A stretch of DNA of 64,000 bases, taken from the NCBI GenBank assembly GCA_963704535.1, contig OY969916.1:3830841-3894840 (forward strand), in the 5' to 3' direction. This DNA comes from an uncultured Chloroflexia bacterium (GTDB lineage Bacteria; Chloroflexota; Chloroflexia; Chloroflexales; Roseiflexaceae). This document shows, piece after piece, positions 5,207 through 38,235 of the stretch. Every line of letters starts with the position of its first letter. Position 1 is the stretch's first letter. The notes under the pieces were generated by a model. The model saw nothing but the letters and a program-made list of their open reading frames with translations, had not been told where the DNA came from and did not search any database. The translations under genes were made by a program, and so were the position numbers.

Positions 5207-5549
5207 GCACGAAACACGATGCAAGCTTGGGGCTGGTACAGGACACACCTGGCCAGCCCTTTTTCGTGGTCACTTGCTCTTGTTCTTACTGGTGATAACG
5301 CCCGTTATCAGAATAGGCTTTTCCTGTACACCCCCATCTCCCACAACTATCCACAGCCCAGATGTGCTATACTTGTGGCTTCAGTTCTGCCACTTAGGAG
5401 TGCGGGTTTGCCAATGAACGACGAACTTCGGTAGATAGTCATTGAGCCGCTGCGTCGCAGGAATGAGCAGCCTGCTGGGCTACACACCCAAGCCCTCGCG
5501 TAGCGGATCATTGTGTGTAGGCATGTAGTAGCAGTCAAGGTACCATGTT

Positions 5550-5858: not shown

Positions 5859-6133
5859 AGACATTATCAAGGTTGGCGGTATACTGTCCGGGATGTTCTT
5901 TCACGGAGTGAAATAATGCCAAAGTTCGACACCATTTTGCAGAATGAGCGGCGCTTACGCGCCTTTACCGGCCTGGATACAGCCACCTTCACAGCCTTCT
6001 TACCCGATTTTACCAAGGCAATGCAACACTATCTCAAGGGCACGACCCTTGATGGCTACGTCCGAGAAGGCGACCGCGCGATTACCTACGCCAACAGCCC
6101 GCTACCCACAGCCTCTGATCGGCTGCTATTCAT

Positions 6134-7461
6134 CTGTAGTTTTGCAAAGTTGAACCACACGCGCTCCTGTAGTAGGATAGCCCCATGCGGATCCGTGCCA
6201 GATGAATCACCACCAGGAGCGGGTATGCCAGCGATTGTTGAGTTCCCAAGCGTCGTGCAAGACCTCCTGGTCCAATACGCAGACCTGTTTGCCAACCAGC
6301 CCGAGCGCCAGCACTTCGCTGAGTATCTGACCGGCCTGTTCATTGCTGAACGCAAAACCGTCAGCGGTATCAACCGCGAGTTTGCAGTCACGACAGACCA
6401 GTCCTGCCTGAACCGCTGGATCACTGAGGTTGAGTGGGAGGAAAAGGCGCTCAACCAGCGGCGCCTCGAGCTGCTGCAACGCGACTCTGCCACCCACTAC
6501 ACCAAGAATGGCGTCATCGCGATTGATAACACCCTCATCGATCACGACGGCAAGCTGATTGAAGATGTCGGCTGGTTCTGGGATCATGCTGAGAAGCGGC
6601 ACCTGATTGCCCACGACTACTTGATCGCCAACTACGTCTGCGCTTCCGGCAAGCACTATCCGCTGGAGTTCCGCCGCTTTCGCAAGAAGGACACCTGTGC
6701 CGCCACAGGCAGTCTCTTCAAGAACCACACCGTCCTGTGTCAAGAACTGGTCGATTGGGTCGTGGAACAGAACATACCGGGCGATTTCACCTTCGATAGT
6801 TACTTCACCCATGCCGACATTCTCAACCACATCGACGGTTATGGCCGCAATTACGTCGGTGATCTGAAGTTCAATCGTACTATCAACGTCGATGGACGCG
6901 ACTGGAAAGCCAGTGAATGGGTGAAGGCCGAACTGGGACCGCTGTGTCGGCGCAAAACGACCGTCGACGGCAAAGAGCAATGGTACTTCACCAAAAGTAT
7001 TCGCATTCCGGGCGTCACGCACACGGTGCGGATTGTGGTGCTGTGGAAAGGGCAACGGGATGCCGAACCACGCAAGATCTTGATTACCAATCGCACCTAT
7101 TGGGAAGTGCATCGCATCCTCAAGACGTATCGCAAACGCTGGACAGGAACGGAGACCTTCCATCGGGACGGGAAGCAGCATCTCGGCATGGGCGATTGTC
7201 AGCTCAGGAAGGGCGAGAGCCAGACACGGCATATGTATCTCGTATTCCTGGCGTACAGCGCCTTGATGACCCAGTTGCGGCACGACCGTGCGCAGGAATG
7301 GGCTCAGGCACGCCTAATGACCATCGGCGAGTCCTGTCGCGCCATGTCTCGCGAGACCTTGGGCAAAACGATCGCCTGGGTGGTTGAGCAGGTTCAGCAA
7401 GGGCAGAGTCTGTCCGATATCAAGGCCCATTTGGCCCTACCCTAACTTTGCAAAACTACAG
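6134..7461 (+). mobile_element. IS701-family (IS4 superfamily) insertion sequence, copy 1, nested inside the IS5-family element
   Basis: It has perfect 18-bp IRs, CTGTAGTTTTGCAAAGTT and AACTTTGCAAAACTACAG. It is flanked by a duplicated TTCAT that is present only once in the intact IS5-family copy (…gctattcatcctcacc…). Confidence 0.75.
6225..7445 (+). CDS. IS701-family DDE transposase (copy 1)
   Basis: It is identical in length to the transposase at 18184..19404, with 2 aa differences. An N-terminal motif QHFAEYLTGLFIAERKTVSG is present. The 631-aa ORF at 5550..7445 in the track is an in-frame chimera of the nuclease fragment, IS5 orfA and this transposase. Confidence 0.8.
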   Translation: MPAIVEFPSVVQDLLVQYADLFANQPERQHFAEYLTGLFIAERKTVSGINREFAVTTDQSCLNRWITEVEWEEKALNQRRLELLQRDSATHYTKNGVIAIDNTLIDHDGKLIEDVGWFWDHAEKRHLIAHDYLIANYVCASGKHYPLEFRRFRKKDTCAATGSLFKNHTVLCQELVDWVVEQNIPGDFTFDSYFTHADILNHIDGYGRNYVGDLKFNRTINVDGRDWKASEWVKAELGPLCRRKTTVDGKEQWYFTKSIRIPGVTHTVRIVVLWKGQRDAEPRKILITNRTYWEVHRILKTYRKRWTGTETFHRDGKQHLGMGDCQLRKGESQTRHMYLVFLAYSALMTQLRHDRAQEWAQARLMTIGESCRAMSRETLGKTIAWVVEQVQQGQSLSDIKAHLALP

Positions 7462-8213
7462 TTCATCCTCACCTATCTCAAGCAGAATGCTATCCAAGAG
7501 GTGCATGGGCAGCTCTTCGGCATGAGTCAGTCAAATGTCAGTAAATGGGTGCGGCTATTACTGGATATTCTTGAACGATGCCTTGGCCGCCCAACGGCTG
7601 TTGCCAGCACGCAGCGCAGCAGAACTGGCAGCGCGGTTACGAGACGAAACGCTCGAACTCGATCCAGAGGCTCCCCTTTTTTCTGTCACGACGCTACAGA
7701 GCGACCGATAGCACGACCAAAAGATGCGGAGGAGCAGGAAATCTACTACAGCGGCAAGCAGAAAGACCATACCATCAAGAATGTGCTCATTGTGGATGCG
7801 GCTGGGCGTATTTGGTTTTTGAGCGCCACATATGCCGGCAAAGTTCACGATAAACGGATTGCGGATGAAGCCCAATATCGGCTGCCGGAAGGCAGCGTGT
7901 TGGGGCAAGATAGTGGATTTCAGGGTTTCACACTGCCGGATGTGTTCATCCTCCAACCAAAAAAGAAGCCACGCAACGGCACGCTGACCGAGGACGAGAA
8001 AGCAGAGAATCGCTGGATCTCGCACATCAGAGTGCTGGTCGAGCATAGTATCGGTGGTGTGAAAGTCTATCGGATAGTTCACGATGTAATTCGTCACTGG
8101 TGTCCTTCCATCCGCGATCAGGTAATGCAGATTTGCTGTGGCCTCTACAATCTGCGGCTACGTCATCAGATGGCGGATACAAGCCTATCTGAATCTTGAT
8201 AATGTCTAGTGAG

Positions 8214-8507
8214 AATTATCCGGTTGCGGATGCAATAGCTCAGAGGTGGTATGAGGGGATTCCGCACGAAGCTGGAACGGAAAAATGGGCCTTTGCCTTT
8301 AGTGCAAAGAAAAAATGGCATGACAAGGTGGTGTCTGATGTAGACAAGATCGCCAAACTTCCACGCAAATATGACCTCATTTACTTCATCACGAATCAAT
8401 TTGTTTCTGATAAAAAACGAGCAGAGACTGAACAAAAGTTGATAGCTTTGCACGGAATTGAGGTGCGAAATTCTAGACAGAACCTGGTTAGTGAGACGCA
8501 CATGTGA
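8214..8507 (+). pseudogene. 3' portion of the IS-interrupted Mrr_cat-like nuclease gene
   Basis: The frame is continuous with 5550..5858 once the IS and its TSD are removed. See the feature at 5550. Confidence 0.4.
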
Positions 8508-11196
8508 TCATGGACACGAAGAATTAGCAATAGACACGCTGCATATCCATGTACCTGTTAGACCTGAAGTTCGTTTGGGGCCACTTGACGCATCGAGAGA
8601 AGCAGAGCTTAATGCACTAGAAGAAAAGTTCAAACAACCGGAGAAATGTTATAGAACGACGTATCAATTAATAGAGGATTATATTCAGGCTGCCAAGCTT
8701 TCACGAGGTATGGCCCATCCGAGACATCGTGTTTTCGGGTATTTGTCATACGCGAAACAGCTAGCCTACCAGACAAATAATGTTCAACAGATAATTCGTG
8801 TTATCTATAATGAGGCTTGGACGGCGTTCTGGTGGTTCGATGATGTTGATGAACTTAATAGAAGATATGATGAAATCGAACCCTTATGTCTGAAATCGAT
8901 TTATATTTCGGATTTGGAACACTTACATAACTTATGGCAATTAATGTATACCTTTGTAAGAAGGGATTTATTGAAAATCGATAAGAAAAAGCCGAGTAAA
9001 CGAACACATAATTTATTGCAATTAATCGAAGCATTCGCAACAAATGAGTCTAAGCCAAATACGGCACTTCATGCGCGTACGATAATGCATCTCACAAAAT
9101 TACTGCTTGGAGCTACTGAAAAATCAGATATCGTCCGAGAAGAATTAACTAGGCTCAAGATGTGTTTTAAGGAAATAGACGGTTTGGCTTCATATCCTGT
9201 TTTGTCATTTATTGAAGTTTTGGCTGAAATAGGTAATTCATTTTCTGATTATGTCGAGTATGACGATATAATGGAAGATTTATGTATAATTGCGGCAAAG
9301 AGAGAAGGAGAAGTACAAGAGGGAACACTACTGTTTCAGCGTGGTATACAAAAGCTTGAGAAACGCAAGTACCTGGAAGCTTTGAAATTACTCGGCCGTG
9401 CCCGAGAAAAGTTTGTGAAAGATGAAGCACAGGCAGAAATGGTGCAAACTGCTATTGCTTGTGGAGTGGTATATGAAGCAATGGGATTATTGTGGGCAGC
9501 ACGAATGGAGGTACTAGTAGCGGCATCTATTGCTCTTAGCAAGCTTGATTCGCAAGGTATAATACCACATATTGCATTAACCTGTACTCAGCGGATGATA
9601 TGGCTAGAGCTTCAGTTTGGGCGAATCCCTTGCGTTCTCGAATGGTATCGGCTTAGTGTGGCTCTGGCAAGGGCACTAGAATTAGATGATGAAGAGGATG
9701 TGGCATTTGAGAACCAACGTGCATTGCAAGATGCAGTGTTGGGGATTTTGATGTTAAGGCTGAAACCGGAGGAATTGATACATTTTGAGATACTCCCCGC
9801 TATTTTAGATGAATTACAACTATTCTCGGCAAGTGCTGCCCTCCTCTATGGTCTTGGACATGAAGAAGTGCTGCGTGAAGAGGGGTTGTTCACATCCCAA
9901 GATAGTAAGAGTGATGTTCTAAATTTCTTTGTTCGCCTGAGAGATCAACCTGCAAGTTCTGACCTGCCTGATAAACCAATCTTTCACGCACAACGACAAA
10001 CATTGTATGTAACTATTTTGATGGGCTGTAGGGTAGAGATTTCTGTTCAGAACTCTTTCGACTGTCTCAGTCTTGCTGAGAATATACTCGCTGTACTAGA
10101 GGCTTTCCTTGCCACTATCGATTATTCCGACTTCGCCTTTTATCGACCGAGTTTGCGAATTACCATAGAACAATCTGAATATGTGTCGTTCCCTGGATAC
10201 GCGTGGATTAATGAGGCAATAACCGGAAAAGCAGTCGAAATACGAATTAATAACTCAACCAGCTATTATCGAGATCTAATGGTGCGCTCTCAAGCTGAGT
10301 TTAGAGATTGGCTGGTGGAGATACTATCTCTTGTTCTCGGCGCTGCTACAATTCCCCGAGACAGTAATGTAGAAAATCCGCTCGAAAAGCTTGCGAAAGA
10401 GGGTGCCTTTTCACGAGCATTATCGTTTTCTCCCACATCAATTTGGCTTAATAATGTTTTGGGTGACAAACCAAAATATGCCATCTCTGCTTGGACTAAA
10501 CCGGAAGACCAGAAAGTATATCACTTGAAGCGCAGGGAGGCTTGGGATATCTCTGTTCCGGTTTTGTCAAATCAGATCCAAGATGATACGAAAGATTTAT
10601 CAAGCAAATTTACATACGACCGAAACGTAATCAAACATAAGGATCATCTTGTTTTATCCCATGTCAACATCGATTTGTGGAATAAAGCTAAATGGGGAGG
10701 GACCGGGTTCATATATGTACCCGATGGTAGCGACGAGCCTATGCTTGGTGTAATTTTTGGTGATTACGAGATTGGAAAACAGATATTTCGAGAATGGCAG
10801 CAGAGCATTGGCGAAGTGGATGAATTTGAGGAGCTACGTGTTTCGATTATTCAAGATATAGAACCAAATTCGCCAAAATATAAAGTTGTGATTGGTACAG
10901 AGGTTGACAACGTATTGAAGCGGCGTGGGCAAGAACACACAGCGACAACCAAAATGTTTGTTATGATGTCTCGAATTAACACTATGGAGCCAGATCCCAA
11001 TTCCAAGTACTTGGAGAATTTCAAGAGGCTATATGGTATTCACGGTTGCTATCGTATTATACCATGTGGCAATTTTAATGGGAGAGCTTTTGATTTTGCC
11101 CCCGAGCTTTCAATTCTCAAAAAAAAGATCCACTTTCGGGACTTGAAAGACATAACCCAAAATGATCTCGACATAGTAGCGTTGCGCGATGTTTAG
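8458..11196 (+). CDS. Large hypothetical protein (912 aa; alternative start at 8710 gives 828 aa), α-helical/TPR-like, with no recognisable catalytic motif
   Basis: It is a long uninterrupted ORF in a markedly AT-rich segment. It overlaps or abuts the nuclease gene, so the two form a likely two-gene operon. No Walker A motif was found. Confidence 0.5.
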   Translation: MRCEILDRTWLVRRTCDHGHEELAIDTLHIHVPVRPEVRLGPLDASREAELNALEEKFKQPEKCYRTTYQLIEDYIQAAKLSRGMAHPRHRVFGYLSYAKQLAYQTNNVQQIIRVIYNEAWTAFWWFDDVDELNRRYDEIEPLCLKSIYISDLEHLHNLWQLMYTFVRRDLLKIDKKKPSKRTHNLLQLIEAFATNESKPNTALHARTIMHLTKLLLGATEKSDIVREELTRLKMCFKEIDGLASYPVLSFIEVLAEIGNSFSDYVEYDDIMEDLCIIAAKREGEVQEGTLLFQRGIQKLEKRKYLEALKLLGRAREKFVKDEAQAEMVQTAIACGVVYEAMGLLWAARMEVLVAASIALSKLDSQGIIPHIALTCTQRMIWLELQFGRIPCVLEWYRLSVALARALELDDEEDVAFENQRALQDAVLGILMLRLKPEELIHFEILPAILDELQLFSASAALLYGLGHEEVLREEGLFTSQDSKSDVLNFFVRLRDQPASSDLPDKPIFHAQRQTLYVTILMGCRVEISVQNSFDCLSLAENILAVLEAFLATIDYSDFAFYRPSLRITIEQSEYVSFPGYAWINEAITGKAVEIRINNSTSYYRDLMVRSQAEFRDWLVEILSLVLGAATIPRDSNVENPLEKLAKEGAFSRALSFSPTSIWLNNVLGDKPKYAISAWTKPEDQKVYHLKRREAWDISVPVLSNQIQDDTKDLSSKFTYDRNVIKHKDHLVLSHVNIDLWNKAKWGGTGFIYVPDGSDEPMLGVIFGDYEIGKQIFREWQQSIGEVDEFEELRVSIIQDIEPNSPKYKVVIGTEVDNVLKRRGQEHTATTKMFVMMSRINTMEPDPNSKYLENFKRLYGIHGCYRIIPCGNFNGRAFDFAPELSILKKKIHFRDLKDITQNDLDIVALRDV

Positions 11197-11672
11197 TCTA
11201 ACCTTTTCATAAAGACATGAAAGGATCGTCGTGATCCGACATAGTAGACTTTATCAAGATGTAAGTAATTGATCCTCTAGCATTTTGATGACAAAGACGA
11301 CTTGCCATTAGCGGAATTTACCACCGTACAGGCTAGTTTTCCATTACAATATCGTTGCGACGAGCCTTCTATTCCCATAATCCCTATTTCCGGTCCAGTT
11401 CCACGATGTTACGTTCTATGGCCCAATTTCGCACGAATGCTCCATAGCGCAAGCGCCACCACCACGAATGAAAATACTGTGCTATCCTCACTTCAGACCA
11501 TGTGCGTGTCAGACGTCGACAACGATCTGGTGCCGGGGAGTCCGGGCACGAATGTGATCTAGCGCCTGTAGGTATCACCGTCTGTTGCCCCATCTTTTTG
11601 GGAGCACGCAAGGGAAACTCTTACTTGTTGACCCAGGCGCTCCGTGCATGGTCACGTTGCAAGGAGGTCAGG

Positions 11673-12917
11673 ATGCACATCTTGTATCAGCGCTGTTGTG
11701 GTTTGGACGTGCATAAACAGCGGGTCAGCGCCTGCTTGTTACTGCCGGGCAATGATCGTCGTCAGCAGAAGGTTGCACGCTCCTTTGGGACCACCACCAG
11801 CCAACTCCAAGCCCTCAAGGAGTGGTTAGTCGCAGCAGACTGCACTCACGTCGCCATGGAAAGCACCGGGCCATACTGGAAACCAGTCTACAACATCTTG
11901 GAAGACAGCTTTACTCTGATCCTGGCGAATGCCCAACACATTAAGGCCCTACCAGGACGCAAGACCGATGTTGGTGATGCCGAATGGATTGCAGATCTGC
12001 TCCAGCATGGTCTGATACGCAGTAGTTTCATTCCATCGCGACCCCTGCGTGAACTGCGCGAACTGACCCGCTATCGCAAAACCTTGATCCAAGAACGCTC
12101 CGCAGAAATCAACCGGGTGCAGAAAGTGCTGGAGGGAGCCAATATCAAACTCGGCTCAGTCGCAACCAATGTTTTGGGGGTGTCTGGACGGGCGATGCTG
12201 GATGCGCTGGTCAACGGCACCACAGATAGTAACGTTTTAGCCGACTTGGCTCAGGGCAGGTTGCGCAAGAAGATACCCGAACTCCAAGCCGCCTTGAACG
12301 GGCTGATCGCAGATCATCAACGCTTCGTGCTGGGCCAACAGTTAGCGCATATTGATAGTTTGAACGCGATGATCGTCACGTGCAGCGCTGAGATAGAGCA
12401 GCGCTTTGCCGACCATCAGGAGCTGATCAGACGGCTCTGCACGATACCGGGGGTCGGGCAACGAACAGCCGAAACGCTGCTGGCAGAGATTGGTACGGAT
12501 ATGAGTCGCTTTCCGAGTGCCAAACATCTGGCCTCCTGGGCTGGTTTGTGTCCAGGCAATCACGAGAGCGCGGGGAAGCGTAAATCAGGCAAAACGCGCA
12601 AAGGCAGCCGCTGGTTGCGGGAAGCGTTAGTAGAGGCGGCACGAGCTGCGGCACGAACCCGCACCACCTACTTGGCAGCCCAATATCATCGTTTAGCTGC
12701 ACGACGAGGCGGTAACAAGGCCGCCGTGGCGGTCGCACATACGATTCTGGTCATCAGCTATCATCTCATCCGTGATGGAGGCGAGTACGAAGATTTGGGG
12801 GCGACGTACTACGACGAAATGGATCGCGAGCGAGTTCAGCGGCGTTTAGTGCGCCGTCTTGAAGCGATGGGCTGTCGGGTCACGCTCGAACCAGACCAGC
12901 CGGCAGCAACAGCATAA
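11673..12917 (+). CDS. IS110-family transposase (DEDD type)
   Basis: It begins [23 protein letters not shown]..., which is the IS110 N-terminal DEDD domain. The C-terminus has the ...[16 protein letters not shown]...[15 protein letters not shown] helix-hairpin-helix region. An AGGAGG RBS lies at 11662. IS ends are not defined because IS110 lacks IRs. Confidence 0.85.
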
Positions 12918-13079
12918 CGCTTCACAGTTGACAATTGATAACCCCAACGATGGCTCCTTCTGGTCTGCCGATGCTGGACGGAGGTGGGTCTGGAGAGGGT
13001 GTGTGCATTGGAAGAGGTTATTGCACCCCAAACGCCCTGCACAACCCGTATTTTCAAGGGAATCGTTGCCAGATCCCGA

Positions 13080-13744
13080 TTATGGTTGAGCTTCGCTGGG
13101 AGGAAGTAGGAGTTGTTTCACGATAGCTAGGTGATCATCTACTGTTGCGACTTCGAGGCAATCTAAGAGACAGGTAGTACTATCAAGATATGCTTCCAGC
13201 GTATGCAGCCATGCCGAAGTAAGAGAAATCGCATGAGCCACATTGTAGTCAGAACTTAAAAATTTGCCTGCCATATTAGATTGATTGTTTGTTTCGTAGG
13301 TAGCCATACGGAAACTAACTTCAATACTCGCGCGAGCACTGGCGATGGCATTGGCCAGGACGTTGGCGCGGGCACTGGCACGGTCGCTCTTTACGGTGCG
13401 GGCCAGGTCAGTGGCGCGGGCACTGGCGCGGGCAAGGGCGACAGCGATGTCGCTGACACGGATATATTCGCTGGCACGGGCGAGATCGCTAGCGAGATCG
13501 CTGGTGACGTCGTTAGTGAATGCGCTGCTAAGGGCGGGACCATCGTCGCGGATGAGGGTATCGTAGCCGGTAGATATCAACTGCCATAGTGCCTGGGTCA
13601 TTGCCATTGCACGCATGCTGTAGTACGAAGTCGAGCTTATGGATTGTTGATATTGGGCTGCCCATTGCACGAAGGCAGTTAGCTCTTCACTGGTCTGTAT
13701 CATTTCTTGCAATTGTACACACCATATGTTAAACAAGCGTGTAA
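13080..13744 (-). pseudogene. Repeat-containing coding fragment, possibly the displaced 3' part of the NACHT gene split by the IS5-family insertion
   Basis: It is a minus-strand ORF immediately downstream of the IS5-family element. It contains a tandem ~15-nt DNA repeat (ggcgcgggcactggc...) that encodes an ARASA-like repeat. The N-terminal 70 aa of the listed ORF read through IS sequence. Confidence 0.3.
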
Positions 13745-14752
13745 CATTGTGGTAGTCCAACATACTAGTGGTAAGCAGAATCACTTCACGCCATCGCTTA
13801 TCTGCTGCATGGGATAGGCTCTTTCTGCCAATCCGCTTTCCGGTATCAAGCCGCTGCGGCGGCATGCGAGAGGAGGCGAAGATAGCGTTCGATAAACGCC
13901 AGCTTGACCAGTCCCAAGTAGTTGAGTGCCAGCTTCTCGTAGCGCGTCGCGATCGCACGACACTCTTTCAGCCAGCCCACGCACTGCTCGATCGTAGAGC
14001 GACGGCGATACAGCACGCAATCATAGGTCACTGGGCGACCAGGTTTTGGTTTTCCACTGCGCCGTTTGGGTGGAATGATTGGTTTGATACCACGCGAGCG
14101 CAACCAGTGGCGGATGCGCTGAGCGTCGTAGGCGCGGTCGGCCGCCAAGCGACGTGGTCGTCGTCGGATGCGTCCGCTAGCGCGTGGGATGGCCACCTGC
14201 TCCATCACGGTTTCGACCTGTGTTGATTCGTGAGTTTGCCCAGGCGTGAGACAGACATCGAGCGGCACGCCGTTGCCGTCACTCAGCAGATGGATTTTGG
14301 TGCTAAAGCCACCCACCGATCGTCCGAGTGCGTGGTTGCCGGGTTCGGAGTTGCCGTCAGGTCCGCTTTTTTCGGCTCCAGCAGCGGCGCGGTGGGCACG
14401 CACGATCGTGCTATCGAGCGACCATTGCTCCCAGTCGATAATGCCTTGTGCATCCAGTTTGGTTTGGAGCGTCTTGAGGATGCGATCCCAGATGCCGTTG
14501 CGGCGCCAGGTGGTGTAGCGGTCATAGATTGTTTTCCAGTTGCCATAGCGTTCAGGAATATCGGGCCAGGGCGCGCCGGTGTGCAAACGCCAGAGGATGC
14601 CGTTGATAATCGGACGGTGCTCTTTGTAAGGATGACCAGTCTTGCCATCATTGGTCGGTAAATCTGGCTCAATCAGCGCATACTGTTCGTCAGTCAGTTC
14701 GTAGCGTGCCATCATTGCTCCGGTCTCATTATGGTAAACCTATAGTCTACCA
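13745..14752 (-). mobile_element. IS5-family insertion sequence (approximate ends)
   Basis: It is ~1 kb and carries one DDE transposase. It has imperfect terminal IRs, TTGTGGTAG... at 13746 and ...CTATAGTCTACCACAAC at ~14752. Confidence 0.55.
13846..14715 (-). CDS. IS5-family DDE transposase
   Basis: The sequence MMARYELTDEQYALIEPDLP...GAPWPDIPERYGNWKTIYDRY...RAYD...TIEQCVGWLKECRAIATRYEKL carries the typical IS5/IS4 DDE_Tnp_1 hallmarks. Confidence 0.8.
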   Translation of the reverse strand: MMARYELTDEQYALIEPDLPTNDGKTGHPYKEHRPIINGILWRLHTGAPWPDIPERYGNWKTIYDRYTTWRRNGIWDRILKTLQTKLDAQGIIDWEQWSLDSTIVRAHRAAAGAEKSGPDGNSEPGNHALGRSVGGFSTKIHLLSDGNGVPLDVCLTPGQTHESTQVETVMEQVAIPRASGRIRRRPRRLAADRAYDAQRIRHWLRSRGIKPIIPPKRRSGKPKPGRPVTYDCVLYRRRSTIEQCVGWLKECRAIATRYEKLALNYLGLVKLAFIERYLRLLSHAAAAA

Positions 14753-14769
14753 CAACCGCTACCGGATTG

Positions 14770-16155
14770 TCAGAAAGAGCCTACAACACCGTACAATATA
14801 GATGCCTCTGAGTGATCAGCAATATAGCGGGCGGCAAAGTATTCGTGAAAGGTCAGATGCGAGAAGCTGTAGATGCCATGTGCTCGCTCAATTATCAGCC
14901 CGTGCTGCGCTTCAATTGCGCGTAACACTGCCTCCCCATCGATGTCTTCTGTAGCATCTATCGGTGGCAATCGCCGAAGAAAGCGGACAATACACTCCAC
15001 CAGCTTGCGCTTGTGCATAAACAGTTCGCCACGCTCGAACGTTTCGGCGGCGAGTTCCATGAGCAGTTGGCGTTTGTAGCCAAGTGACAGTTTGCGGTAA
15101 ACTGTATCGCGTTGAATACGACGTGAGCTATCCCACTTCTTTAGCAGCGCATCGATCGCCTCTTCGTAGAGTTCGGCCCGACGCCGTGGAAATGCCATTG
15201 TTTCTTCAAACGTAAGGCAAAGCATGGTAAGTAGCAGCGGTCGGCGGCTGAGATCACGTAAGCGATCGTTTTCCGGCTGGTTGAATGCTTTCCAAAATGC
15301 CGCGTATGTATCCTCGTCGTCTTGAAACCAGCGTGCAACGAAGGTTTGCACCTGTTCATGTGTGAAGTCCGCCAATTCGCAGTAACTAAATCCCTCAAAC
15401 GTGTAATCGGTGGCCGCTGCTCGGCACGTAATCACGACACGAGTTTTGCCGTATTGCATGGCAAAGTCACGTACAGAATTGATGATCAGATCTCGTGCGC
15501 CACCTTCGAGATTGACCTCGTCCAGCCCGTCGAAGAGCACAATCGCCTTCCCTTCTTCGAGGATACGTTCGACGAACGGCTGTGCATCGGGGAAACCGCA
15601 GATCGCGAACTGACGCACCATGAAAGGAAGCAGGTCGGTCTTGGCGTCTGACCAGACCTTGAGGGAGACAAAGATGGGGATAGTATCCAGCTTCCCTCTA
15701 ATCGCCTGGTCGACTAGGTATTTGAGAAATGTTGTTTTGCCCGAGCCAGGTTGCCCCAGAATAAACAATCTGCTCTGTGCTCGCACCAAGTCGATGCCAG
15801 GATGCCGTTTTTGGTTTTGCTCAGGTAGAACCTCAGTCTGCGTTTGCTTTTGAAGCTCCTCGATCCCATGACGCCGCCACGCGATCGGCTTATCGAGGAG
15901 ATAGAGGTCCGTGAAGATATTATTGAGCGGGACTGGCTTGCTCATGCCGAAGATTTGCATAGCCCCGTACTGCTGGTGCAGCTCTCGGCGGTAGGTACGT
16001 GAGGCGAGAACCCAGTCAACACGTTCCCAGCCTGCCTCTTTGATCTCCTCGGCGTGTTTCCTCAGGCACTTGACGAGCCAGCCGACGACGTCTTTGCCAT
16101 AGTTTTCCCAAGCCCAGACACCTACGGGTATTAGAAAGGACTCGATACCAGTCAT
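14770..16155 (-). CDS. NACHT-domain STAND NTPase, ending right after the NTPase module at the IS5-family insertion
   Basis: It has a Walker A (GQPGSGKTTFLKYL), a Walker B (IVLFDGLDEV) and a sensor motif (RPLLLTMLC). No C-terminal repeat array follows before the stop, and the IS abuts 18 bp downstream. Confidence 0.7.
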   Translation of the reverse strand: MTGIESFLIPVGVWAWENYGKDVVGWLVKCLRKHAEEIKEAGWERVDWVLASRTYRRELHQQYGAMQIFGMSKPVPLNNIFTDLYLLDKPIAWRRHGIEELQKQTQTEVLPEQNQKRHPGIDLVRAQSRLFILGQPGSGKTTFLKYLVDQAIRGKLDTIPIFVSLKVWSDAKTDLLPFMVRQFAICGFPDAQPFVERILEEGKAIVLFDGLDEVNLEGGARDLIINSVRDFAMQYGKTRVVITCRAAATDYTFEGFSYCELADFTHEQVQTFVARWFQDDEDTYAAFWKAFNQPENDRLRDLSRRPLLLTMLCLTFEETMAFPRRRAELYEEAIDALLKKWDSSRRIQRDTVYRKLSLGYKRQLLMELAAETFERGELFMHKRKLVECIVRFLRRLPPIDATEDIDGEAVLRAIEAQHGLIIERAHGIYSFSHLTFHEYFAARYIADHSEASILYGVVGSF

Positions 16156-16619
16156 CGGCGTGCTCCTCGTAACAGTGCGGATGGGTCTAATGATAGCACT
16201 CCGCGCAAGAGGGACCAGCCACGCAGGGGAGCGAAGCCCCTAACCAGAGCTGACTGTTACCCATATCTTCCAGACGTGAGCAGAATGGGCTGGATCAACA
16301 GGAAATGGCCCTGAAGTGGGGTCGTGCAAGCAGCAGTTACCTGACAAACAGCCCACTTACGCGCCAAATCCATCACCTAGAAAACATATGGGTAATAGTC
16401 AGCTAACCAGAGAGGGGAAGATAGAACGACCGATTCTGTGTCGTGGGTTCCCATAATACCTGTTCCTGGTACCACTCCGTGTGAGATTGCCCATAGACAC
16501 GCGGCAGACTGGTTCCATATAATAGGAAAATACCGGTGTTATTGGAACCAGTTTTTGCCGACATTTCTGTTTGTATCCCCTGCCCGGCGGTGCTAGGATA
16601 CGGAGAGACCAAACGATCT

Positions 16620-17501
16620 ATGACAGAGACAACCCTTTCCCTTGAACAAGCCCTCGCTGATTTTCTCAAAGCCCTGGCGGGCAAGAATAGAAGTGTCGCA
16701 ACTATCAGCGCCTACCGAACCGACAGCCACCAGTTTATCACTTGGCTGCATGAGAACAACATGGTCGTGCTCTCCCCTGTCCAGGTCGAGCGGGCCGACA
16801 TCACCGACTATATGGCCTCCCTTGCCGAACGCAAGCTCTCCGGCGTCTCCAGAGCACGGAAAGTCGCCGCCCTCAGAGAGTATTTCCGCTATCTTGCAGA
16901 GCATGAGCGTATCAGCAAGTCACCGATGACCGGCGTTGAGACGCCCAGACGGGAGAAGCACAGCCGAACGGCCTTGACCCGCGACGAATACAGCCTACTT
17001 CTCTCCCTCGCCGGTGCCAGCATCCGCGACTATGCCATTGTGCAAGTCTTCCTTCAGACCGGCCTGCGCGTCTCTGAGTTAGTCGCACTCCGCATTGACG
17101 ATGTTGACCTCACGAGCCGTGTGCTCCACGTTCGCGCCGGCAAAGGAATGGCTGCGCGCAGTATTGAACTGGAGCGCAAAGCGACCCAGGCAATCAAGAA
17201 TTACCTGGCCACCCGGTCAACCATCGCGGATGACCAGCTCTTTCTGAACCGCGACAATGAGCCAATCTCCGGGCGAGGTGTCAGAAAGCTCGTGACAAAA
17301 TACCTTCGTCTGGCCGGCATCAAGAAGAAGGCGAGCTGCCACTCGCTCAGACACACCTTTGCCACGGCCAAAGCCCAGCAAGGCATCAGCGCCTACCGGC
17401 TCAAAGAGTGGCTCGGCCACCAGTCTCTTGAGACGACCCAAATCTATATTCACCTGTCCAAACAGAACGCAGCCAGAGAAATGGAGCAAACGAGCTTATG
17501 A
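16620..17501 (+). CDS. Tyrosine recombinase, XerC/XerD-like
   Basis: It has a phage-integrase SAM-like N-domain. The catalytic residues sit in ...RVSEL...HSLRHTFAT...GHQSLETTQIYIHLS (R, H-x-x-R, Y). It is divergently oriented from the NACHT gene. Confidence 0.8.
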   Translation: MTETTLSLEQALADFLKALAGKNRSVATISAYRTDSHQFITWLHENNMVVLSPVQVERADITDYMASLAERKLSGVSRARKVAALREYFRYLAEHERISKSPMTGVETPRREKHSRTALTRDEYSLLLSLAGASIRDYAIVQVFLQTGLRVSELVALRIDDVDLTSRVLHVRAGKGMAARSIELERKATQAIKNYLATRSTIADDQLFLNRDNEPISGRGVRKLVTKYLRLAGIKKKASCHSLRHTFATAKAQQGISAYRLKEWLGHQSLETTQIYIHLSKQNAAREMEQTSL

Positions 17502-18096
17502 CGGCATACCGGACATCAATGACAACCTGTTCCTCGATCTCCGCAGCAGCACAAGCCGCGAAGGCCCGGCGGCAAGCGGTGTTACGAAGGGTCCAAGCAC
17601 AGCGAGCGATAGCACATAAACGGACAGTTGCAGACTGGATGAGAGACGGGCTGGTGATAACGGGCAGCGAGTTGAGAGATAAGTATGTAGTTGGCAGACG
17701 TGCTGCTGGACAGCGCATATGAGATACCTCCCTCCCAATCACTTCACTCCATCCACGCACCACACTTGATCCCTGGTGTATACTAGAGATGCAGGAGTCA
17801 CACTCCCACATACTCCTCGTTCGCTTTCACTGAACTTCGTTACAGCCACACGGTCTACCCCTGCGGCAGAGTGGGAGAGTTAGGCAGTGCAATGTGGCAC
17901 ATGCACCGCCTGAAGAGGAGTCGTGCACGGGCGAGGCCACCAAGAGTTGTCAAGGAAACGCTTGACACTCAGATCGCGTTTTACGGCTTTCTGATGGGTT
18001 TTACACTGCAAACTAATACTAGAAGGAATCTGTGTCAATGGCTAGAGCAAGCAGTAACAGCAAACAATTAGCCCCGAACGATGCCCATCTAACTGT

Positions 18097-19418
18097 AGTT
18101 TTGCAAAGTTGAACCACACGCGCTCCTGTAGTAGGATAGCCCCATGCGGATCCGTGCCAGATGAATCACCACCAGGAGCGGGTATGCCAGCGATTGTTGA
18201 GTTCCCAAGCGTCGTGCAAGACCTCCTGGTCCAATACGCAGACCTGTTTGCCAACCAGCCCGAGCGCCAGCACTTCGCTGAGTATCTGACCGGCCTGTTC
18301 ATTGCTGAACGCAAAACCGTCAGCGGTATCAACCGCGAGTTTGCAGTCACGACAGACCAGTCCTGCCTGAACCGCTGGATCACTGAGGTTGAGTGGGAGG
18401 AAAAGGCGCTCAACCAGCGGCGCCTCGAGCTGCTGCAACGCGACTCTGCCACCCACTACACCAAGAATGGCGTCATCGCGATTGATAACACCCTCATCGA
18501 TCACGACGGCAAGCTGATTGAAGATGTCGGCTGGTTCTGGGATCATGCTGAGAAGCGGCACCTGATTGCCCACGACTACTTGATCGCCAACTACGTCTGC
18601 GCTTCCGGCAAGCACTATCCGCTGGAGTTCCGCCGCTTTCGCAAGAAGGACACCTGTGCCGCCACAGGCAGTCTCTTCAAGAACCACACCGTCCTGTGTC
18701 AAGAACTGGTCGATTGGGTCGTGGAACAGAACATACCGGGCGATTTCACCTTCGATAGTTACTTCACCCATGCCGACATTCTCAACCACATCGACGGTTA
18801 TGGCCGCAATTACGTCGGTGATCTGAAGTTCAATCGTACTATCAACGTCGATGGACGCGACTGGAAAGCCAGTGAATGGGTGAAGGCCGAACTGGGACCG
18901 CTGTGTCGGCGCAAAACGACCGTCGACGGCAAAGAGCAATGGTACTTCACCAAAAGTATTCGCATTCCGGGCGTCACGCACACGGTGCGGATTGTGGTGC
19001 TGTGGAAAGGGCAACGGGATGCCGAACCACGCAAGATCTTGATTACCAATCGCACCTATTGGGAAGTGCATCGCATCCTCAAGACGTATCGCAAACGCTG
19101 GACAGGAACGGAGACCTTCCATCGGGACGGGAAGCAGCATCTCGGCATGGGCGATTGTCAGCTCAGGAAGGGCGAGAGCCAGACACGGCATATGTATCTC
19201 GTATTCCTGGCGTACAGCGCCTTGATGACCCAGTTGCGGCACGACCGTGCGCAGGAATGGGCTCAGGCACGCCTAATGACCATCGGCAAGTCCTGTTGCG
19301 CCATGTCTCGCGAGACCTTGGGCAAAACGATCGCCTGGGTGGTTGAGCAGGTTCAGCAAGGGCAGAGTCTGTCCGATATCAAGGCCCATTTGGCCCTACC
19401 CTAACTTTGCAAAACTAC
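18097..19418 (+). mobile_element. IS701-family insertion sequence, copy 2
   Basis: It has the same 18-bp perfect IRs as copy 1 and is 1322 bp long. No obvious TSD is present (flanks ...atctaa / tagaca...). Confidence 0.8.
18184..19404 (+). CDS. IS701-family DDE transposase (copy 2)
   Basis: It is near-identical to 6225..7445. Confidence 0.8.
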   Translation: MPAIVEFPSVVQDLLVQYADLFANQPERQHFAEYLTGLFIAERKTVSGINREFAVTTDQSCLNRWITEVEWEEKALNQRRLELLQRDSATHYTKNGVIAIDNTLIDHDGKLIEDVGWFWDHAEKRHLIAHDYLIANYVCASGKHYPLEFRRFRKKDTCAATGSLFKNHTVLCQELVDWVVEQNIPGDFTFDSYFTHADILNHIDGYGRNYVGDLKFNRTINVDGRDWKASEWVKAELGPLCRRKTTVDGKEQWYFTKSIRIPGVTHTVRIVVLWKGQRDAEPRKILITNRTYWEVHRILKTYRKRWTGTETFHRDGKQHLGMGDCQLRKGESQTRHMYLVFLAYSALMTQLRHDRAQEWAQARLMTIGKSCCAMSRETLGKTIAWVVEQVQQGQSLSDIKAHLALP

Positions 19419-19477
19419 AGTAGACAGTAGGTGGTTGGGAACGATCGAATAATCTCTTACTATACAAGGAGGGACAC

Positions 19478-19891
19478 ATGCGTCACAAATCCATTTTCCT
19501 CGCCTTGGCTCTTGCCATGCTCATCGGCTCGGTTTTGATGCTTGGTACACCTACGCAGAGGGCATATGCCTCTGCACAGAAGACATATATCTCAAGCTGT
19601 CGTAATCTTGGGGTATATACCGATTGGTACAACAATAAACCATCAATCTACATCTGGAACGGAGCAGTACGCCCTGTCCCATCGAAAATGAGTATCAGCT
19701 TCTATGGCCCATTCGGATGGGAGCCTGTCCCATCTCCAAGCGATTGGGGTGTGCGTACTGATGCTCCCCAGGTCGAAAATAGGAATGGATGGTATATCTA
19801 CTTCATCGCAACAAGATGGATCTACTTGACAACACCCCATTCACTGTTTTGGAACGATGATTGGCGATGGAGAGTGACGTATTGTAGCTAA
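19478..19891 (+). CDS. Small secreted Trp/Tyr-rich protein (signal peptide)
   Basis: It starts MRHKSIFLALALAMLIGSVLMLGTPTQRAYASAQ, a signal peptide. It lies in an AT-rich segment between IS701-family copies, and an AGGAGG-like RBS (caaggaggg) is present. Confidence 0.4.
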   Translation: MRHKSIFLALALAMLIGSVLMLGTPTQRAYASAQKTYISSCRNLGVYTDWYNNKPSIYIWNGAVRPVPSKMSISFYGPFGWEPVPSPSDWGVRTDAPQVENRNGWYIYFIATRWIYLTTPHSLFWNDDWRWRVTYCS

Positions 19892-20135
19892 TATCGGCCT
19901 CAAATAGAATTATCGAAAGGGGGTGTGTGAAACACCTCCTTTTTGCACCCAGATCGGTGTTTATACTTCTTGTTAAGCGTCAATAACTTCCTGTATCGAG
20001 TTGTCAAATTATGTAACTTTAATTATAGCAAACCTACCAGAGTCGTAAAAGGGAGTATGGGGTAGCTCCCACAGAAACCATCCCTCACTTTACAACTCAG
20101 ATAGGAATGCTATATAATGACATTTATTCACAAAT

Positions 20136-20525
20136 ATGTCAATTAATTTGCTGAAGTCCACAAGAAAAGCCTTCTTTCTGTTTATTATAATCTGGTATTC
20201 GTTATTAGTTCCTTCATATTATGCTTACGGAATAATGCCCATTGTACACATGGGTCAGCGGTCATGGCCTCTCTATTTCTTCTTGATGGATGCATTCGCC
20301 TTAATTTCAGCCGTTTTTGTAATATTAATAATCACAATAGATTATTATAAAAGGAGACGTCTTTCTTCTGAGTGGATTATTCTAATTTTACTATTGATTC
20401 ATCCTCTTGTTACAACTTACATGACTTACGTGGATTTGACCACAAAACTATGTAATACATATGCTTGCAAATCAGCTATCCCTAGCCCAGACTTAAGATC
20501 AATATATTTCAGTTGGGAAAAATAA
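20136..20525 (+). CDS. Small integral membrane protein (3-4 TM)
   Basis: It is an AT-rich ORF with hydrophobic helices (FFLFIIIWYSLLV, FALISAVFVILIITI, IILILLLIHPLV). Confidence 0.3.
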   Translation: MSINLLKSTRKAFFLFIIIWYSLLVPSYYAYGIMPIVHMGQRSWPLYFFLMDAFALISAVFVILIITIDYYKRRRLSSEWIILILLLIHPLVTTYMTYVDLTTKLCNTYACKSAIPSPDLRSIYFSWEK

Positions 20526-21382
20526 TAGAGTTTATCGAGATTTAGGTTAACAGTTGACATGGCGATAAGTGCATTCGCAGATTGTGATGGCGCAACAGAT
20601 TACGACATCGTGGATATTGTTGGACGCGGAGGCGGATTTGTCACATCACAATTACGCAGCGTTTGACGCTACTAATGATGTTGTAGATTACAGTTGTGTT
20701 CGATTGCTACCCGCCCCTCTGGCGTGTCGCACCTGGGCTTCCTATGTGGAAGTTATGCTCTTGGATAACGTTTTAAACCATGTAACAGTTTCTTTACCGT
20801 ATCGCTTCAAACCCACTACAAGCATGCTCTTGCCATCACACGGGAGCATCACTAGAGACATACAGCGCGTGCATCAAGTGGCGGCAAAACATATTGTCGC
20901 GGAGCATACCCAGGCGATAAAAGCAAAGACAGCAGCATCGCCGATCAACGATGTCTATGGTCACGAACATGAGGAATTCTGTCGCCACACCGCTGCTACC
21001 CTGGCGAGTCTGAACGGGAAGGGCATCCACGCCGATGCCTCAGTAGATAAAGTCAGGGTGAAAGGCCCCGCTATCCCTAAGTATAGGTGCATCTCATCCC
21101 TAAATACCCTACATAACGATAGTTCTCAACGAGCTAAAACAACGATAGCATGATGTCGCTACCAGAGCGATCTGTCAAGCCTTCTGTGGGGAAATCTTTG
21201 AGCTACTGGTTCGATATGTAACAAGAAAGGAGGCATCCACATTACCCATACGAAGGGAGCACAGCTCGTCACTGGCAGCAAGTTCAAGAGTATAACAGCG
21301 AAGGAGTAAGGTACGAGGCAAGTCTCGCTCAGATATCGCGGAGCGATGCTTATCCACTCTCTACACAATAAGGAGGTACCCC

Positions 21383-21856
21383 ATGAAACTCGGCACAGTC
21401 AAGGCGTATGGGCTTATTGTCACACTGCTCTGCTCTATGGTGATGGGGGTAGGCATAGTGCCTGTCAAAGCTCAAGAGATACACACAGCAACCCGCTCTA
21501 CGTTGGCCAGCGCGAACTCGTCTAATCTACACGTCGGTGTCACAAGTATTACGACTAACACCCTACAGAATACGTACCAATACCTGGTTTATGGAGATAG
21601 GCTTTTCATGACCTACGGAGGACCGTGGTGGGACTATTGTCACCACGTTGTGCATTTCAGCTATCCGCGATCGTTAGACGGCCGTATTGTCGGTTTCGCG
21701 GTATTCGGGCCTGGCAATCCATCCTCCTGGGGTTCGCCGGGTAACGGTCAGCTAAATGCAGGCTACCGCTACGTACCAGGGCCTGGGTTGGAGTGCGTCC
21801 CAGACTTCACGAACCGCCCTGGGGACTTTAAATTATGGTTATCAATTAGGTCATAG
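21383..21856 (+). CDS. Small secreted protein (signal peptide, Gly/Pro/Trp-rich)
   Basis: It starts MKLGTVKAYGLIVTLLCSMVMGVGIVPVKAQE. An RBS aaggagg lies 8 nt upstream. Confidence 0.4.
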   Translation: MKLGTVKAYGLIVTLLCSMVMGVGIVPVKAQEIHTATRSTLASANSSNLHVGVTSITTNTLQNTYQYLVYGDRLFMTYGGPWWDYCHHVVHFSYPRSLDGRIVGFAVFGPGNPSSWGSPGNGQLNAGYRYVPGPGLECVPDFTNRPGDFKLWLSIRS

Positions 21857-22502
21857 CGTCCCCAGAAGCAACCTGGGTGTGTGACAGGAAACAAGCGGTA
21901 AGTACCAGCGTATCCTATCCTCAGACTGATTACAATGCACCCGTTTGTTTCCTGTCACCACATTCTTGGACATCTTTCCTGATGTAGTTATGAGAAACAA
22001 GAAAGAAATGATAGTACGAATTAGATAGAAAAGCAATACCGGACAAAGTAAATTGGGACTAAATGCAGTCAATCGACGATGATATGCAGTATAGTGGAGC
22101 ATATGATCACACGATGTCGTATAGGTCGAATTGAACTGAAAACGCTTTGCACATTTACGCGGCATTGTGTCCATTTAGGGTGTGTTTGGTTTCATTTGCG
22201 ACCGAGAAAATCCCATCCGGTATTGATAGAAAAGAGAATTTAGGAGATGTATCACTTTGCTTTTAGTGAATAAATATCGAGAACTACCAAAGAACCCCCG
22301 AGAGAAACACATCTTTTCTTTATACATTGTTTATCCGAGTTAACAAATTTTCCTGATGTGATAATTACTTCTTTATTAAGAAAAGGCTGTAAATCTTGTT
22401 TGCTAGTGCCTACGCTAATACGGTAAAAGTGCGATTTTTTATTAAACGGATCAAACACACCATCACCTTTATATTCGACGCAGTAGCCATCTTTGGTAAG
22501 AT

Positions 22503-25851: not shown

Positions 25852-25853
25852 GT

Positions 25854-26288: not shown

Positions 26289-26327
26289 AGTCTCATCCCG
26301 TACCACCAGGCAGCCAGACATGTATGG

Positions 26328-38175: not shown

Positions 38176-38183
38176 CCAGGCAG

Positions 38184-38229: not shown

Positions 38230-38235
38230 CACGAG

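What the first reader, a model, noticed from the sequence alone, without database searches (positions are those of the whole stretch)
13080..16155. NACHT STAND NTPase apparently split by an IS5-family insertion, with a tandem-repeat tail displaced downstream
The 461-aa NACHT ORF ends 18 bp before an IS5-family element, without the C-terminal sensor repeats that bacterial NACHT proteins normally carry. Directly on the other side of the IS, on the same strand, is a coding-like fragment. It contains ~15-nt tandem DNA repeats that encode a short-period Ala/Arg/Ser repeat. Bacterial NACHT proteins are now known as antiphage sensors. This one sits in a mobile element near a nuclease module and a XerC-like recombinase.
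Basis: inference. Interest (0 to 1): 0.5.

Follow-up and report, generated by a model that had tools for sequence, protein, structure and literature searches.

The report
NACHT immune-type gene broken by IS
A 702-codon gene for a bacterial NLR-like (NACHT) ATPase was recently cut in two by a 965-bp IS5-family insertion sequence; this is an ordinary, well-supported pseudogenisation of a member of a known family, whose tail carries the short coding repeat that varies across the whole family.

Summary
The minus-strand NACHT ORF (14770..16155, 461 aa) is the 5' part of a gene interrupted by an IS5-family element. The element is at 13817..14781 (965 bp), not 13745..14752. It has 19/20-matching terminal inverted repeats and a duplicated TA. 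The ORF does not stop 18 bp before the IS: its last three codons and its stop codon lie inside the IS end.

Deleting the IS plus one TA restores a 702-aa ORF. This ORF aligns end to end with intact 720-735-aa homologues at about 60% identity. The junction falls inside an invariant motif (H..D..WRE).

An identical IS copy with different flanks in another sample confirms the boundaries to the base.

The tail repeat has a 12-nt period (4 aa) with a 6-nt sub-period, not 15 nt. It belongs to a hypervariable helical segment found throughout this family, which combines NACHT with the C-terminal NCH2 domain (Pfam PF22727).

No effector domain is recognisable, and no neighbouring gene is conserved. The gene is cargo of a 31.6-kb, IS-riddled integrative element that carries a serine recombinase. 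The "nuclease module" could not be confirmed.

Verdict: real, recent and ordinary.

The parts
14782..16155 (-). 5' segment of the NACHT gene (codons 1-458). The last two bases (TA, 14782-83) are the target dinucleotide.
   Evidence: ORF list; reconstruction; alignment to intact homologues.
14770..16155 (-). Truncated 461-aa ORF as it now reads: 458 native residues plus GSF and a stop codon supplied by the IS end.
   Evidence: The identical 461-aa product is on record for an 11.26-Mb contig (P0001) and in an independent read-set assembly (L001).
15319..15768 (-). NACHT NTPase domain (residues 130-279). Walker A GQPGSGKT lies at 15733-15756 and Walker B LFDGLDEV at residues 207-214.
   Evidence: Pfam PF05729, E = 2.9e-12. 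Family-invariant G134/G137/G139/K140/T142 and D209/D212/E213 are retained.
13817..14781 (-). IS5-family insertion sequence, 965 bp.
   Evidence: Inverted repeats (pair I1; 2 matches against 0 expected). A 100% identical copy with different flanks exists (L082), and a 99.8% identical copy (L083).
13817..13835 (.). Terminal inverted repeat at the transposase-distal end: GGCTCTTTCTGCCAATCCG.
14763..14781 (.). Terminal inverted repeat at the transposase-proximal end. It supplies the TGA that ends the 461-aa ORF.
13815..13816 (.). TA target-site duplication, copy 1.
   Evidence: Only removal of the IS plus one TA restores the frame. Removing the IS alone leaves both TAs and gives a frameshifted 469-aa ORF. 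Removing both TAs runs into an early stop, by reading the sequence. The copy in L082 is also flanked by TA on both sides.
14782..14783 (.). TA target-site duplication, copy 2.
   Evidence: As for copy 1.
13846..14715 (-). Intact transposase gene, 289 aa (DUF4096 plus DDE_Tnp_1).
   Evidence: Pfam. NCBIfam NF033580 IS5 family at 297 bits against a cut-off of 110. Transposases 98.3% and 99.7% identical lie on the same 11.26-Mb contig.
13080..13814 (-). 3' segment of the NACHT gene (codons 459-702 plus stop), displaced by the IS.
   Evidence: In frame after excision. It aligns to the C-terminal 250 residues of intact homologues, including the invariant H460, D463, W466, R467 and E468.
13188..13613 (-). 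Hypervariable low-complexity helical segment (residues 526-667). The 12-nt/4-aa repeat core lies at about 13326-13502.
   Evidence: TRF; autocorrelation. Segment length is 104-346 aa across 61 homologues. Long helices with pLDDT 60-82.
13101..13265 (-). C-terminal NCH2-like domain (residues 642-696).
   Evidence: The direct Pfam PF22727 hit is sub-threshold (17 bits, E = 0.0066). The region is aligned with homologues that score 38-45 bits against a cut-off of 27.
13080..13958 (-). Mechanical hybrid ORF (292 aa) that starts at a GTG inside the IS and reads out into the gene's 3' segment. There is no evidence that it is expressed.
   Evidence: The promoter scan is no better than chance.

Best explanation
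This is one gene for a NACHT-clade STAND NTPase of the NACHT-NCH2 family, 702 aa when intact. A 965-bp IS5-family element inactivated it by transposing into a TA inside codon 458 and duplicating that TA.

Layout of the intact protein:
- A family-specific helical N-terminal region of about 115 aa with no recognisable enzyme.
- The NACHT nucleotide-binding domain, a helical domain, and a winged helix with the conserved histidine (H433, in SFSHLTFHEYF).
- A further helical domain.
- A hypervariable helical segment built on a 4-aa/12-nt repeat.
- A C-terminal NCH2 domain.

Inferred mechanism, by analogy with characterised bacterial NACHT proteins and animal NLRs: the C-terminal part holds the ATPase in an off state and perceives a trigger. 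NTP-dependent oligomerisation then activates an N-terminal output.

The insertion leaves a 461-aa product that stops just after the winged helix, and a promoterless 3' fragment. The sensor/regulatory half is therefore lost and the gene is most likely non-functional.

The event is recent. The IS is intact and identical to another copy, and neither gene half has any further lesion.
For: Shown:
- Exact IS ends, with inverted repeats matching 19/20. They are confirmed by an identical copy with unrelated flanks.
- Removing the IS plus one TA gives an uninterrupted 702-aa ORF.
- The restored protein aligns over 100% of its length with intact proteins P0002, P0003, P0005 and P0006 (721-735 aa) at 57-59% identity by BLASTP (58-62% in the MAFFT alignment). 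There is no indel at the junction, which lies in an invariant motif.
- All 75 columns that are invariant across 61 family members are kept.
- NACHT domain found by Pfam.
- AF2 model with mean pLDDT 81. The junction lies in a stretch with pLDDT of 94 or higher. The best structural matches are NLRC4, NLRP3 and NOD2, at E from 1e-10 to 1e-9.
- NCH2 is present at the same C-terminal position in homologues.
- The right-hand junction is reproduced in an independent read-set assembly that breaks 25 nt into the IS, as expected at a multi-copy repeat.
- Further near-identical transposase genes lie in the same genome.

Inferred:
- The sensing/oligomerisation mechanism, by analogy (bioRxiv 10.1101/2022.07.19.500537).
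- The loss of function.
Against: - No empty-site allele was found. The restored junction is absent from the metagenome collection, and the source genome is not in the genome collection.
- No expression data exist.
- The NCH2 match of this protein itself is below Pfam's threshold.
- No effector domain is identified, so the output step is unknown.
- No member of the NCH2-bearing family is known to me to have been tested for phage defence.
- NLRs truncated after the winged helix can be constitutively active, so 'non-functional' is not proven.
Confidence: 0.92

Rival explanations
1. The insertion created a working split or neo-functional arrangement. The 461-aa N-terminal/NBD/winged-helix product, freed of its C-terminal autoinhibitory half, is active. 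Alternatively, the 3' fragment is expressed from an outward-reading IS promoter as the 292-aa hybrid ORF, and the two products act in trans.
For: An open frame runs from a GTG inside the IS (13958) into the tail. The truncation point lies just after the winged helix. In NLRC4 and other NLRs, removing C-terminal regions relieves autoinhibition; this is established knowledge and was not tested here. Both halves are free of other lesions.
Against: The break lies inside an invariant, high-confidence helical region. No homologue has this split or ends here; the shorter database hits lie on contigs of only a few kb or have no contig on record, and were not checked individually. Promoter-like sites are no more frequent than in shuffled sequence. 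The hybrid ORF's first 48 residues are out-of-frame IS sequence. The absence of other lesions is equally explained by a recent insertion.
Confidence: 0.05
2. The two flanking ORFs are unrelated genes: a naturally short NACHT protein and a separate repeat protein. They merely lie on either side of an IS.
For: Short bacterial NACHT proteins exist, for example clade 14 with SNaCT domains. The 461-aa ORF is annotated as a stand-alone product in public records (P0001).
Against: The stop codon of the 461-aa ORF is IS sequence. TSD-aware excision joins the two in frame. The joined protein matches intact homologues collinearly across the junction and to the very C-terminus.
Confidence: 0.01
3. The IS at this position is an assembly artefact: a repeat collapsed or misplaced into an intact gene.
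For: The IS is multi-copy in the genome. Short-read assemblies break at it.
Against: An independent read-set contig (L001) carries the gene-IS junction and extends 25 nt into the IS. The perfect TA duplication and precise in-frame restoration are signatures of real transposition. The window comes from an 11.26-Mb contig, which implies long-read assembly; that last point is an inference.
Confidence: 0.02

Closest known systems
[quoted passage not shown]
   Same: Central NACHT module with Walker A/B and the winged-helix histidine. Tripartite N-terminal / NACHT / C-terminal layout. NCH2 at the extreme C-terminus in homologues. Some family members carry N-terminal CHAT (caspase-like), trypsin-like or HTH domains, which are effector and adaptor classes listed for bNACHTs. 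The family is common in filamentous or multicellular lineages: Chloroflexota, cyanobacteria, Thiotrichaceae and Pyrinomonadaceae.
   Different: This member has no recognisable effector. Its own NCH2 score is sub-threshold. The tested bNACHTs belong to other clades, such as clade 14 with SNaCT and clade 6 with NCH1 plus a nuclease. This copy is insertionally inactivated.
Animal NLRs (NLRC4, NLRP3, NOD2)
   Same: The predicted fold of residues about 115-520 matches their NBD-HD1-WHD-HD2 module (Foldseek E from 1e-10 to 1e-9). A profile also aligns the WHD histidine region to NLRP3.
   Different: 13-17% sequence identity. There are no LRRs and no CARD or PYD domain. The C-terminus is helical low-complexity sequence plus NCH2.
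IS5-family insertion sequences (the small single-ORF type with DUF4096 plus DDE_Tnp_1; NCBIfam NF033580)
   Same: Transposase profile score of 297 bits against a cut-off of 110. About 1 kb long, with short terminal inverted repeats and a 2-bp TA duplication. Multi-copy in the genome.
   Different: The subgroup (IS427- or ISL2-like, judged from size and TSD from memory) was not tested, because no ISfinder comparison was available.
Coding simple-sequence repeats of contingency loci
   Same: Tandem 6- and 12-nt units inside a coding region. A unit-number difference (+LDLD) separates two otherwise identical alleles of a homologue.
   Different: The units are multiples of 3, so changes alter length and not frame. 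This gives no on/off phase switching. Whether the variation is adaptive is untested.

Membership tests
NACHT clade of STAND NTPases | Profile match to the NACHT domain above the curated threshold | tested here: met
   PF05729 at 47.2 bits against a cut-off of 26.7, residues 130-279.
NACHT clade of STAND NTPases | Intact Walker A (GxxGxGKT/S) and Walker B (hhhhDGhDE) motifs | tested here: met
   GQPGSGKT at 134-141 and LFDGLDEV at 207-214. Both are family-invariant columns.
NACHT clade of STAND NTPases | NBD-HD1-WHD(-HD2) fold with the conserved winged-helix histidine | tested here: met
   AF2 model with pLDDT 81. Top PDB matches are NLRC4, NLRP3 and NOD2. H433 is invariant in 61 sequences.
NACHT-NCH2 family (Pfam PF22727 at the C-terminus) | NCH2 profile match above the gathering threshold in this protein | tested here: not met
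   17 bits, E = 0.0066, against a cut-off of 27, at residues 642-696.
NACHT-NCH2 family (Pfam PF22727 at the C-terminus) | Full-length collinear homology to proteins that do carry NCH2 above threshold | tested here: met
   42-49% identity over 98-99% of the query to P0015, P0029 and P0042. Their NCH2 scores are 28.9, 38.2 and 45.4 bits. The C-terminal LLxCLxLA...LxLPP motif is aligned.
Experimentally defined antiphage bNACHT systems / PADLOC or NCBIfam defence families (PDC-S60, EruA, DS8) | Profile score at family level | tested here: not met
   PDC-S60 at 34 bits, partial. EruA at 45.6 bits against a cut-off of 1000, and DS8 at 38 bits against 790. Only the shared NTPase core matches.
Experimentally defined antiphage bNACHT systems / PADLOC or NCBIfam defence families (PDC-S60, EruA, DS8) | Demonstrated protection against phage | not testable with these tools
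No paper found in the library tests an NCH2-type member.
IS5 family insertion sequence | DDE transposase matching an IS5-family model above its cut-off | tested here: met
   NF033580 at 296.8 bits against a cut-off of 110. Pfam DUF4096 plus DDE_Tnp_1.
IS5 family insertion sequence | Terminal inverted repeats and a target-site duplication that delimit a mobile unit found elsewhere with different flanks | tested here: met
   19/20 inverted repeats and a TA duplication. The identical unit in L082/L083 has other flanks and is also TA-flanked.
Conserved two-gene conflict system (NACHT plus partner) | A neighbouring gene conserved across homologous loci | tested here: not met
   None of the window's neighbours occurs in 80 homologous loci. 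The most widespread neighbour clusters are in at most 14 of 80 loci, and those loci were not examined further.

The most novel reading that the evidence does not exclude
The interesting object is the family's tail, not the IS hit. In NACHT-NCH2 proteins, the segment between the NTPase module and NCH2 is a coding micro/minisatellite with 6-, 12- and 6n-nt units that encode (A/D)L(A/D)R-type helical repeats. It changes length by unit gain and loss. It could act as a slippage-driven, self-diversifying sensor or spacer in an NLR-like immune protein of multicellular bacteria. That would be a repeat-based counterpart to the DGR-diversified sensors already described for such systems.

Supporting observations: the segment is 104-346 aa long in 61 homologues, while the N-terminal part stays at about 520 aa. 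TRF arrays of period 6n occur in the tail of 14 of 29 full-length homologue genes; outside the tail only two such arrays were found, both near the 5' end. Two alleles with zero substitutions differ only by +LDLD in this segment. I found no description of this in the papers searched.
Probability: 0.3. Interest if true: 0.5.

Novelty: new member of a known kind. Interest (0 to 1): 0.2.

Why it matters
For this locus, little: it is a textbook IS knock-out of one of many STAND NTPase paralogues in a large, IS-rich genome. The 461-aa annotation in public records should be read as a pseudogene fragment. It is useful as a clean, base-exact example (IS ends, TA duplication, restored ORF) and as a caution: guessing IS ends from the transposase ORF makes the excision test fail. 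The wider point worth following is the length-hypervariable coding repeat in the C-terminal half of the NACHT-NCH2 family. If it tunes recognition or autoinhibition, it would be a cheap diversification mechanism for bacterial NLR-like sensors.

Tried and rejected
The 8-bp TGTGGTAG/CTACCACA match there is internal to, or beside, the element. Deletions ending before 14770 never extend the ORF.
- A 15-nt repeat period: rejected.
- Search for the source genome or close relatives in genome contigs using peptides from the protein itself: no confirmed hit. The nearest homologues are from Chloroflexota MAGs.
- Search for an empty-site allele in metagenome contigs using the 24-nt restored junction: none.
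- Effector in the N-terminal 124 aa: no Pfam hit even at E <= 10. An exhaustive phmmer search of 1.84 billion representatives finds this region in proteins of about 680-1070 aa (those already seen are members of this family) and in short sequences that may be fragments. It sits at the N-terminus, or behind an extra N-terminal domain in some. It therefore does not look like a promiscuous adaptor.
- Conserved operon partner: none.
- 'Nuclease module'. The neighbouring 912-aa ORF has no Pfam, PADLOC or NCBIfam hit. The N-terminal domain of its full-length homologues has no Pfam or PDB sequence hit. The fold search of the full model returns only TPR-like solenoids. The invariant GGGDSKVDxE...FAxSAK motif looks REase-like to me, but that is an untested impression.
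- Promoter and terminator scans: no more sites than in shuffles.
- An early script wrote the wrong (frameshifted) 'restored' sequence to disk. This voided, which were redone correctly.
- Restoring the second IS target (L083) gives a 467-aa ORF of unclear integrity. No claim of target preference is made.
Full report
**What is at the coordinates.** On the minus strand there are three consecutive features:
- A 461-aa ORF at 14770..16155.
- A 289-aa ORF at 13846..14715.
- An open frame running from 13958 down to 13080.

The first ORF carries a NACHT domain (PF05729, 47 bits against a cut-off of 26.7, residues 130-279). The second is an IS5-family transposase: DUF4096 plus DDE_Tnp_1 and NCBIfam NF033580 at 297 bits against a cut-off of 110.

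The inverted-repeat search found 21-nt arms at 13815-13835 and 14763-14783 (pair I1). The pattern GGCTCTTTCTGMCAATCCG occurs exactly twice in the 64-kb window, where 0 matches are expected by chance. The element is 13817..14781 (965 bp), with inverted repeats matching 19/20 and TA on both sides.

Independent proof comes from another sample. A Logan contig (L082, SRR27973898) encodes the identical transposase. It is 100% identical to the window over exactly 14783..13815 and unrelated beyond that range. A 233-kb ENA contig holds the same insertion at 99.8% identity. The last 12 nt of the 461-aa ORF, encoding GSF and the stop codon, are therefore IS sequence. The "18-bp gap" does not exist.

**Excision test.**
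- Removing the IS plus one TA (13817..14783 or 13815..14781) gives one 702-aa ORF. The junction reads ...EASILYGVV|SHAADKRWREVILLTTS....
- Removing the IS alone gives a frameshifted 469-aa ORF.
- Removing both TAs runs into a stop after five codons, by reading the sequence.

TA is therefore a genuine 2-bp target duplication. Every trial deletion ending before 14770 left 461 aa.

**Homologues.** The restored protein finds 5608 relatives at E <= 1e-5. Four of the five closest after the self-hit, P0002, P0003, P0005 and P0006 (721-735 aa, 57-59% identity), cover 100% of the query; the fifth, P0004, covers 88%. In the alignment there is no indel at the junction, which lies within a block of invariant residues: H460, D463, W466, R467 and E468. 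Intact relatives do not end where the truncated ORF ends. All 75 columns that are invariant in a 61-sequence alignment are retained in the restored protein, including the Walker A and B motifs and H433 of the winged helix. Apart from the IS, neither half shows damage, so the insertion is recent.

The exact 461-aa product is on record on an 11.26-Mb contig (P0001). A 44%-identical intact paralogue (P0019, 761 aa) lies on the same contig. Transposases 99.7% and 98.3% identical are also on that contig. An independent short-read assembly of the locus (L001) breaks 25 nt inside the IS, as expected at a repeated element.

**What the gene is.** The AF2 model built from 61 sequences has a mean pLDDT of 81. 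Its parts are:
- Three N-terminal helices.
- The NBD, HD1 and winged helix.
- More helices.
- Four long helices spanning residues 522-630, with pLDDT 60-82.
- A confident C-terminal helical unit.

The break falls in a stretch with pLDDT of 94 or higher, just after the winged helix. Foldseek against the PDB returns NLRC4, NLRP3 and NOD2 first (E from 1e-10 to 1e-9).

The C-terminal roughly 60 aa correspond to Pfam NCH2 (PF22727). Homologues score 38-45 bits. This protein scores only 17 bits but aligns with them through the LLDCLxLA...LLLPP motif. The NCH domains were defined in the bNACHT survey (bioRxiv 10.1101/2022.07.19.500537).

The N-terminal 115 aa have no Pfam match, even at E <= 10. In an exhaustive phmmer search they match proteins of about 680-1070 aa (those already seen are members of this family) and short sequences that may be fragments. 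A minority of members add a domain in front of this region: CHAT, trypsin-like peptidase, AAA_35 or HTH. These are effector and adaptor classes listed for bacterial NACHTs.

No neighbouring gene is conserved. Matches to specific defence families (PDC-S60, EruA, DS8) are only NTPase-core similarity, far below the cut-offs. The sensing-oligomerisation-output mechanism is therefore inferred by analogy. The output of this effector-less architecture is unknown.

**The tail repeat.** TRF reports 12-nt units at 13326-13440 and 13480-13502. Against codon-shuffled controls, autocorrelation peaks at 12 nt (z = 5.7) and 24 nt (z = 4.7), with 6-nt harmonics. A 15-nt period is depleted (z = -2.5). The peptide reads DLAS DLAR ... 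ALAR ASAR ATDL AR.. ASAR ANVL ANAI ASAR.

This is a trait of the whole family:
- The segment between conserved R526 and Y667 is 104-346 aa long in 61 homologues. The part before it stays at about 520 aa.
- In 14 of 29 full-length homologue genes from genome loci, TRF finds arrays of period 6n in this tail. Only two such arrays lie elsewhere, both near the 5' end.
- Two alleles with no substitution at all, P0085 and P0386, differ only by +LDLD in this segment.

I found no published description of this.

**Context.** The gene lies in a low-GC stretch (0.42-0.57, against about 0.61 in the flanks). That stretch is a 31.6-kb insert, 2459..34096, which splits an SPFH/Band-7 gene. The 5' part is at 1229..2458 and the 3' part at 34097..34912. 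Rejoining them gives 681 codons with no internal stop.

The insert contains:
- A large serine recombinase at its left end (2451..4094).
- A replication-relaxation protein (27760..28776).
- The XerC-like gene (16536..17501).
- At its right end, an intact inverted copy of the SPFH gene (30978..33023; 97% aa identity over the first 410 residues).

The "mobile element" context is therefore supported. The element is riddled with ISs.

The neighbouring 912-aa ORF is itself the remnant of a gene of about 1100 aa. That gene is split by a nested IS pair and carries a frameshift. Its family has an invariant GGGDSKVDxE...FAxSAK motif in an N-terminal alpha/beta domain, a TPR-like centre and alpha/beta C-terminal domains. 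No profile or PDB sequence match supports calling it a nuclease.

**Verdict.** This is a real, recent and mechanistically ordinary IS knock-out of a member of a known family, the NACHT-NCH2 NLR-like NTPases. Its coordinates, the 18-bp gap and the repeat period are wrong, and the nuclease claim is unverified. Interest is low for the locus. The family-wide repeat-length variation in the C-terminal half is the only lead that might repay further work.

Noticed in passing
window 1229..34912 (insert 2459..34096): A 31.6-kb low-GC integrative element has a large serine recombinase at one end (2451..4094). It splits an SPFH/Band-7 gene at codon ~410 and carries an intact, inverted, 90%-nt-identical copy of that same gene at its other end (30978..33023). 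Rejoining 1229..2458 with 34097..34912 gives a clean 681-codon ORF. The element thus appears to bring a replacement for the gene it disrupts.
   Followed up: partly
window 5613..5867, 8202..8498, 8458..11196 (+): The 912-aa ORF next to the NACHT gene is the 3' part of a gene of about 1100 aa (homologues are 1060-1220 aa). The gene is broken by a nested IS pair and also carries a frameshift near 8465. Its family has an invariant GGGDSKVDxE...FAxSAK motif in an N-terminal alpha/beta domain, a TPR-like middle and alpha/beta C-terminal domains (AF2 pLDDT 85). No known family matches.
   Followed up: partly
window 5858..8207; 6134..7462; 18093..19421; 29787..30802: Nested insertions. A DDE_Tnp_4 IS of about 1 kb (IR AGACATTATCAAG, TAG flanks; second copy at 29787..30802, 99.9-100% identical) is itself interrupted by a 1329-bp IS701-like/DDE_5 element (IR CTGTAGTTTTGC, TTCAT flanks; second copy at 18093..19421, 99.85% identical). 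An IS110 element (11502..12917) and another DDE_5 transposase (22589..23992) lie in the same island.
   Followed up: partly
L082 1..1281; L083 2930..3898 and flanks: The same 965-bp IS (99.8-100% identical) sits in a different metagenome inside another P-loop STAND-like gene (GTGGIGKT...LLIFDNLED, weak AAA_16 match). Both known insertion sites of this IS are therefore in STAND NTPase genes. With n = 2 this may be chance. Restoring the second target gives a 467-aa ORF of unclear integrity.
   Followed up: partly
P0085 vs P0386 (locus L006, tail at nt ~1686-1732 of the gene): Two Acidobacteriota alleles of the NACHT-NCH2 family have zero substitutions and differ only by a 4-aa LDLD insertion in the 6-nt repeat tract of the tail. 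This is direct evidence of repeat-unit gain or loss on a short timescale.
   Followed up: yes
window 38183..38231 and 39011..39059: A 49-nt inverted repeat, 98% complementary and G/C-rich (GGAAAAAGGGGGTTTGAGGGGGCAGCCCCCTCAGTCTCCCCCACCCACA), brackets a 240-aa ORF (38236..38958). Each arm contains its own palindrome. Its nature is unknown.
   Followed up: no
window 46655..56800 (-): A 3381-aa ORF in the high-GC part of the window. It was not examined.
   Followed up: no
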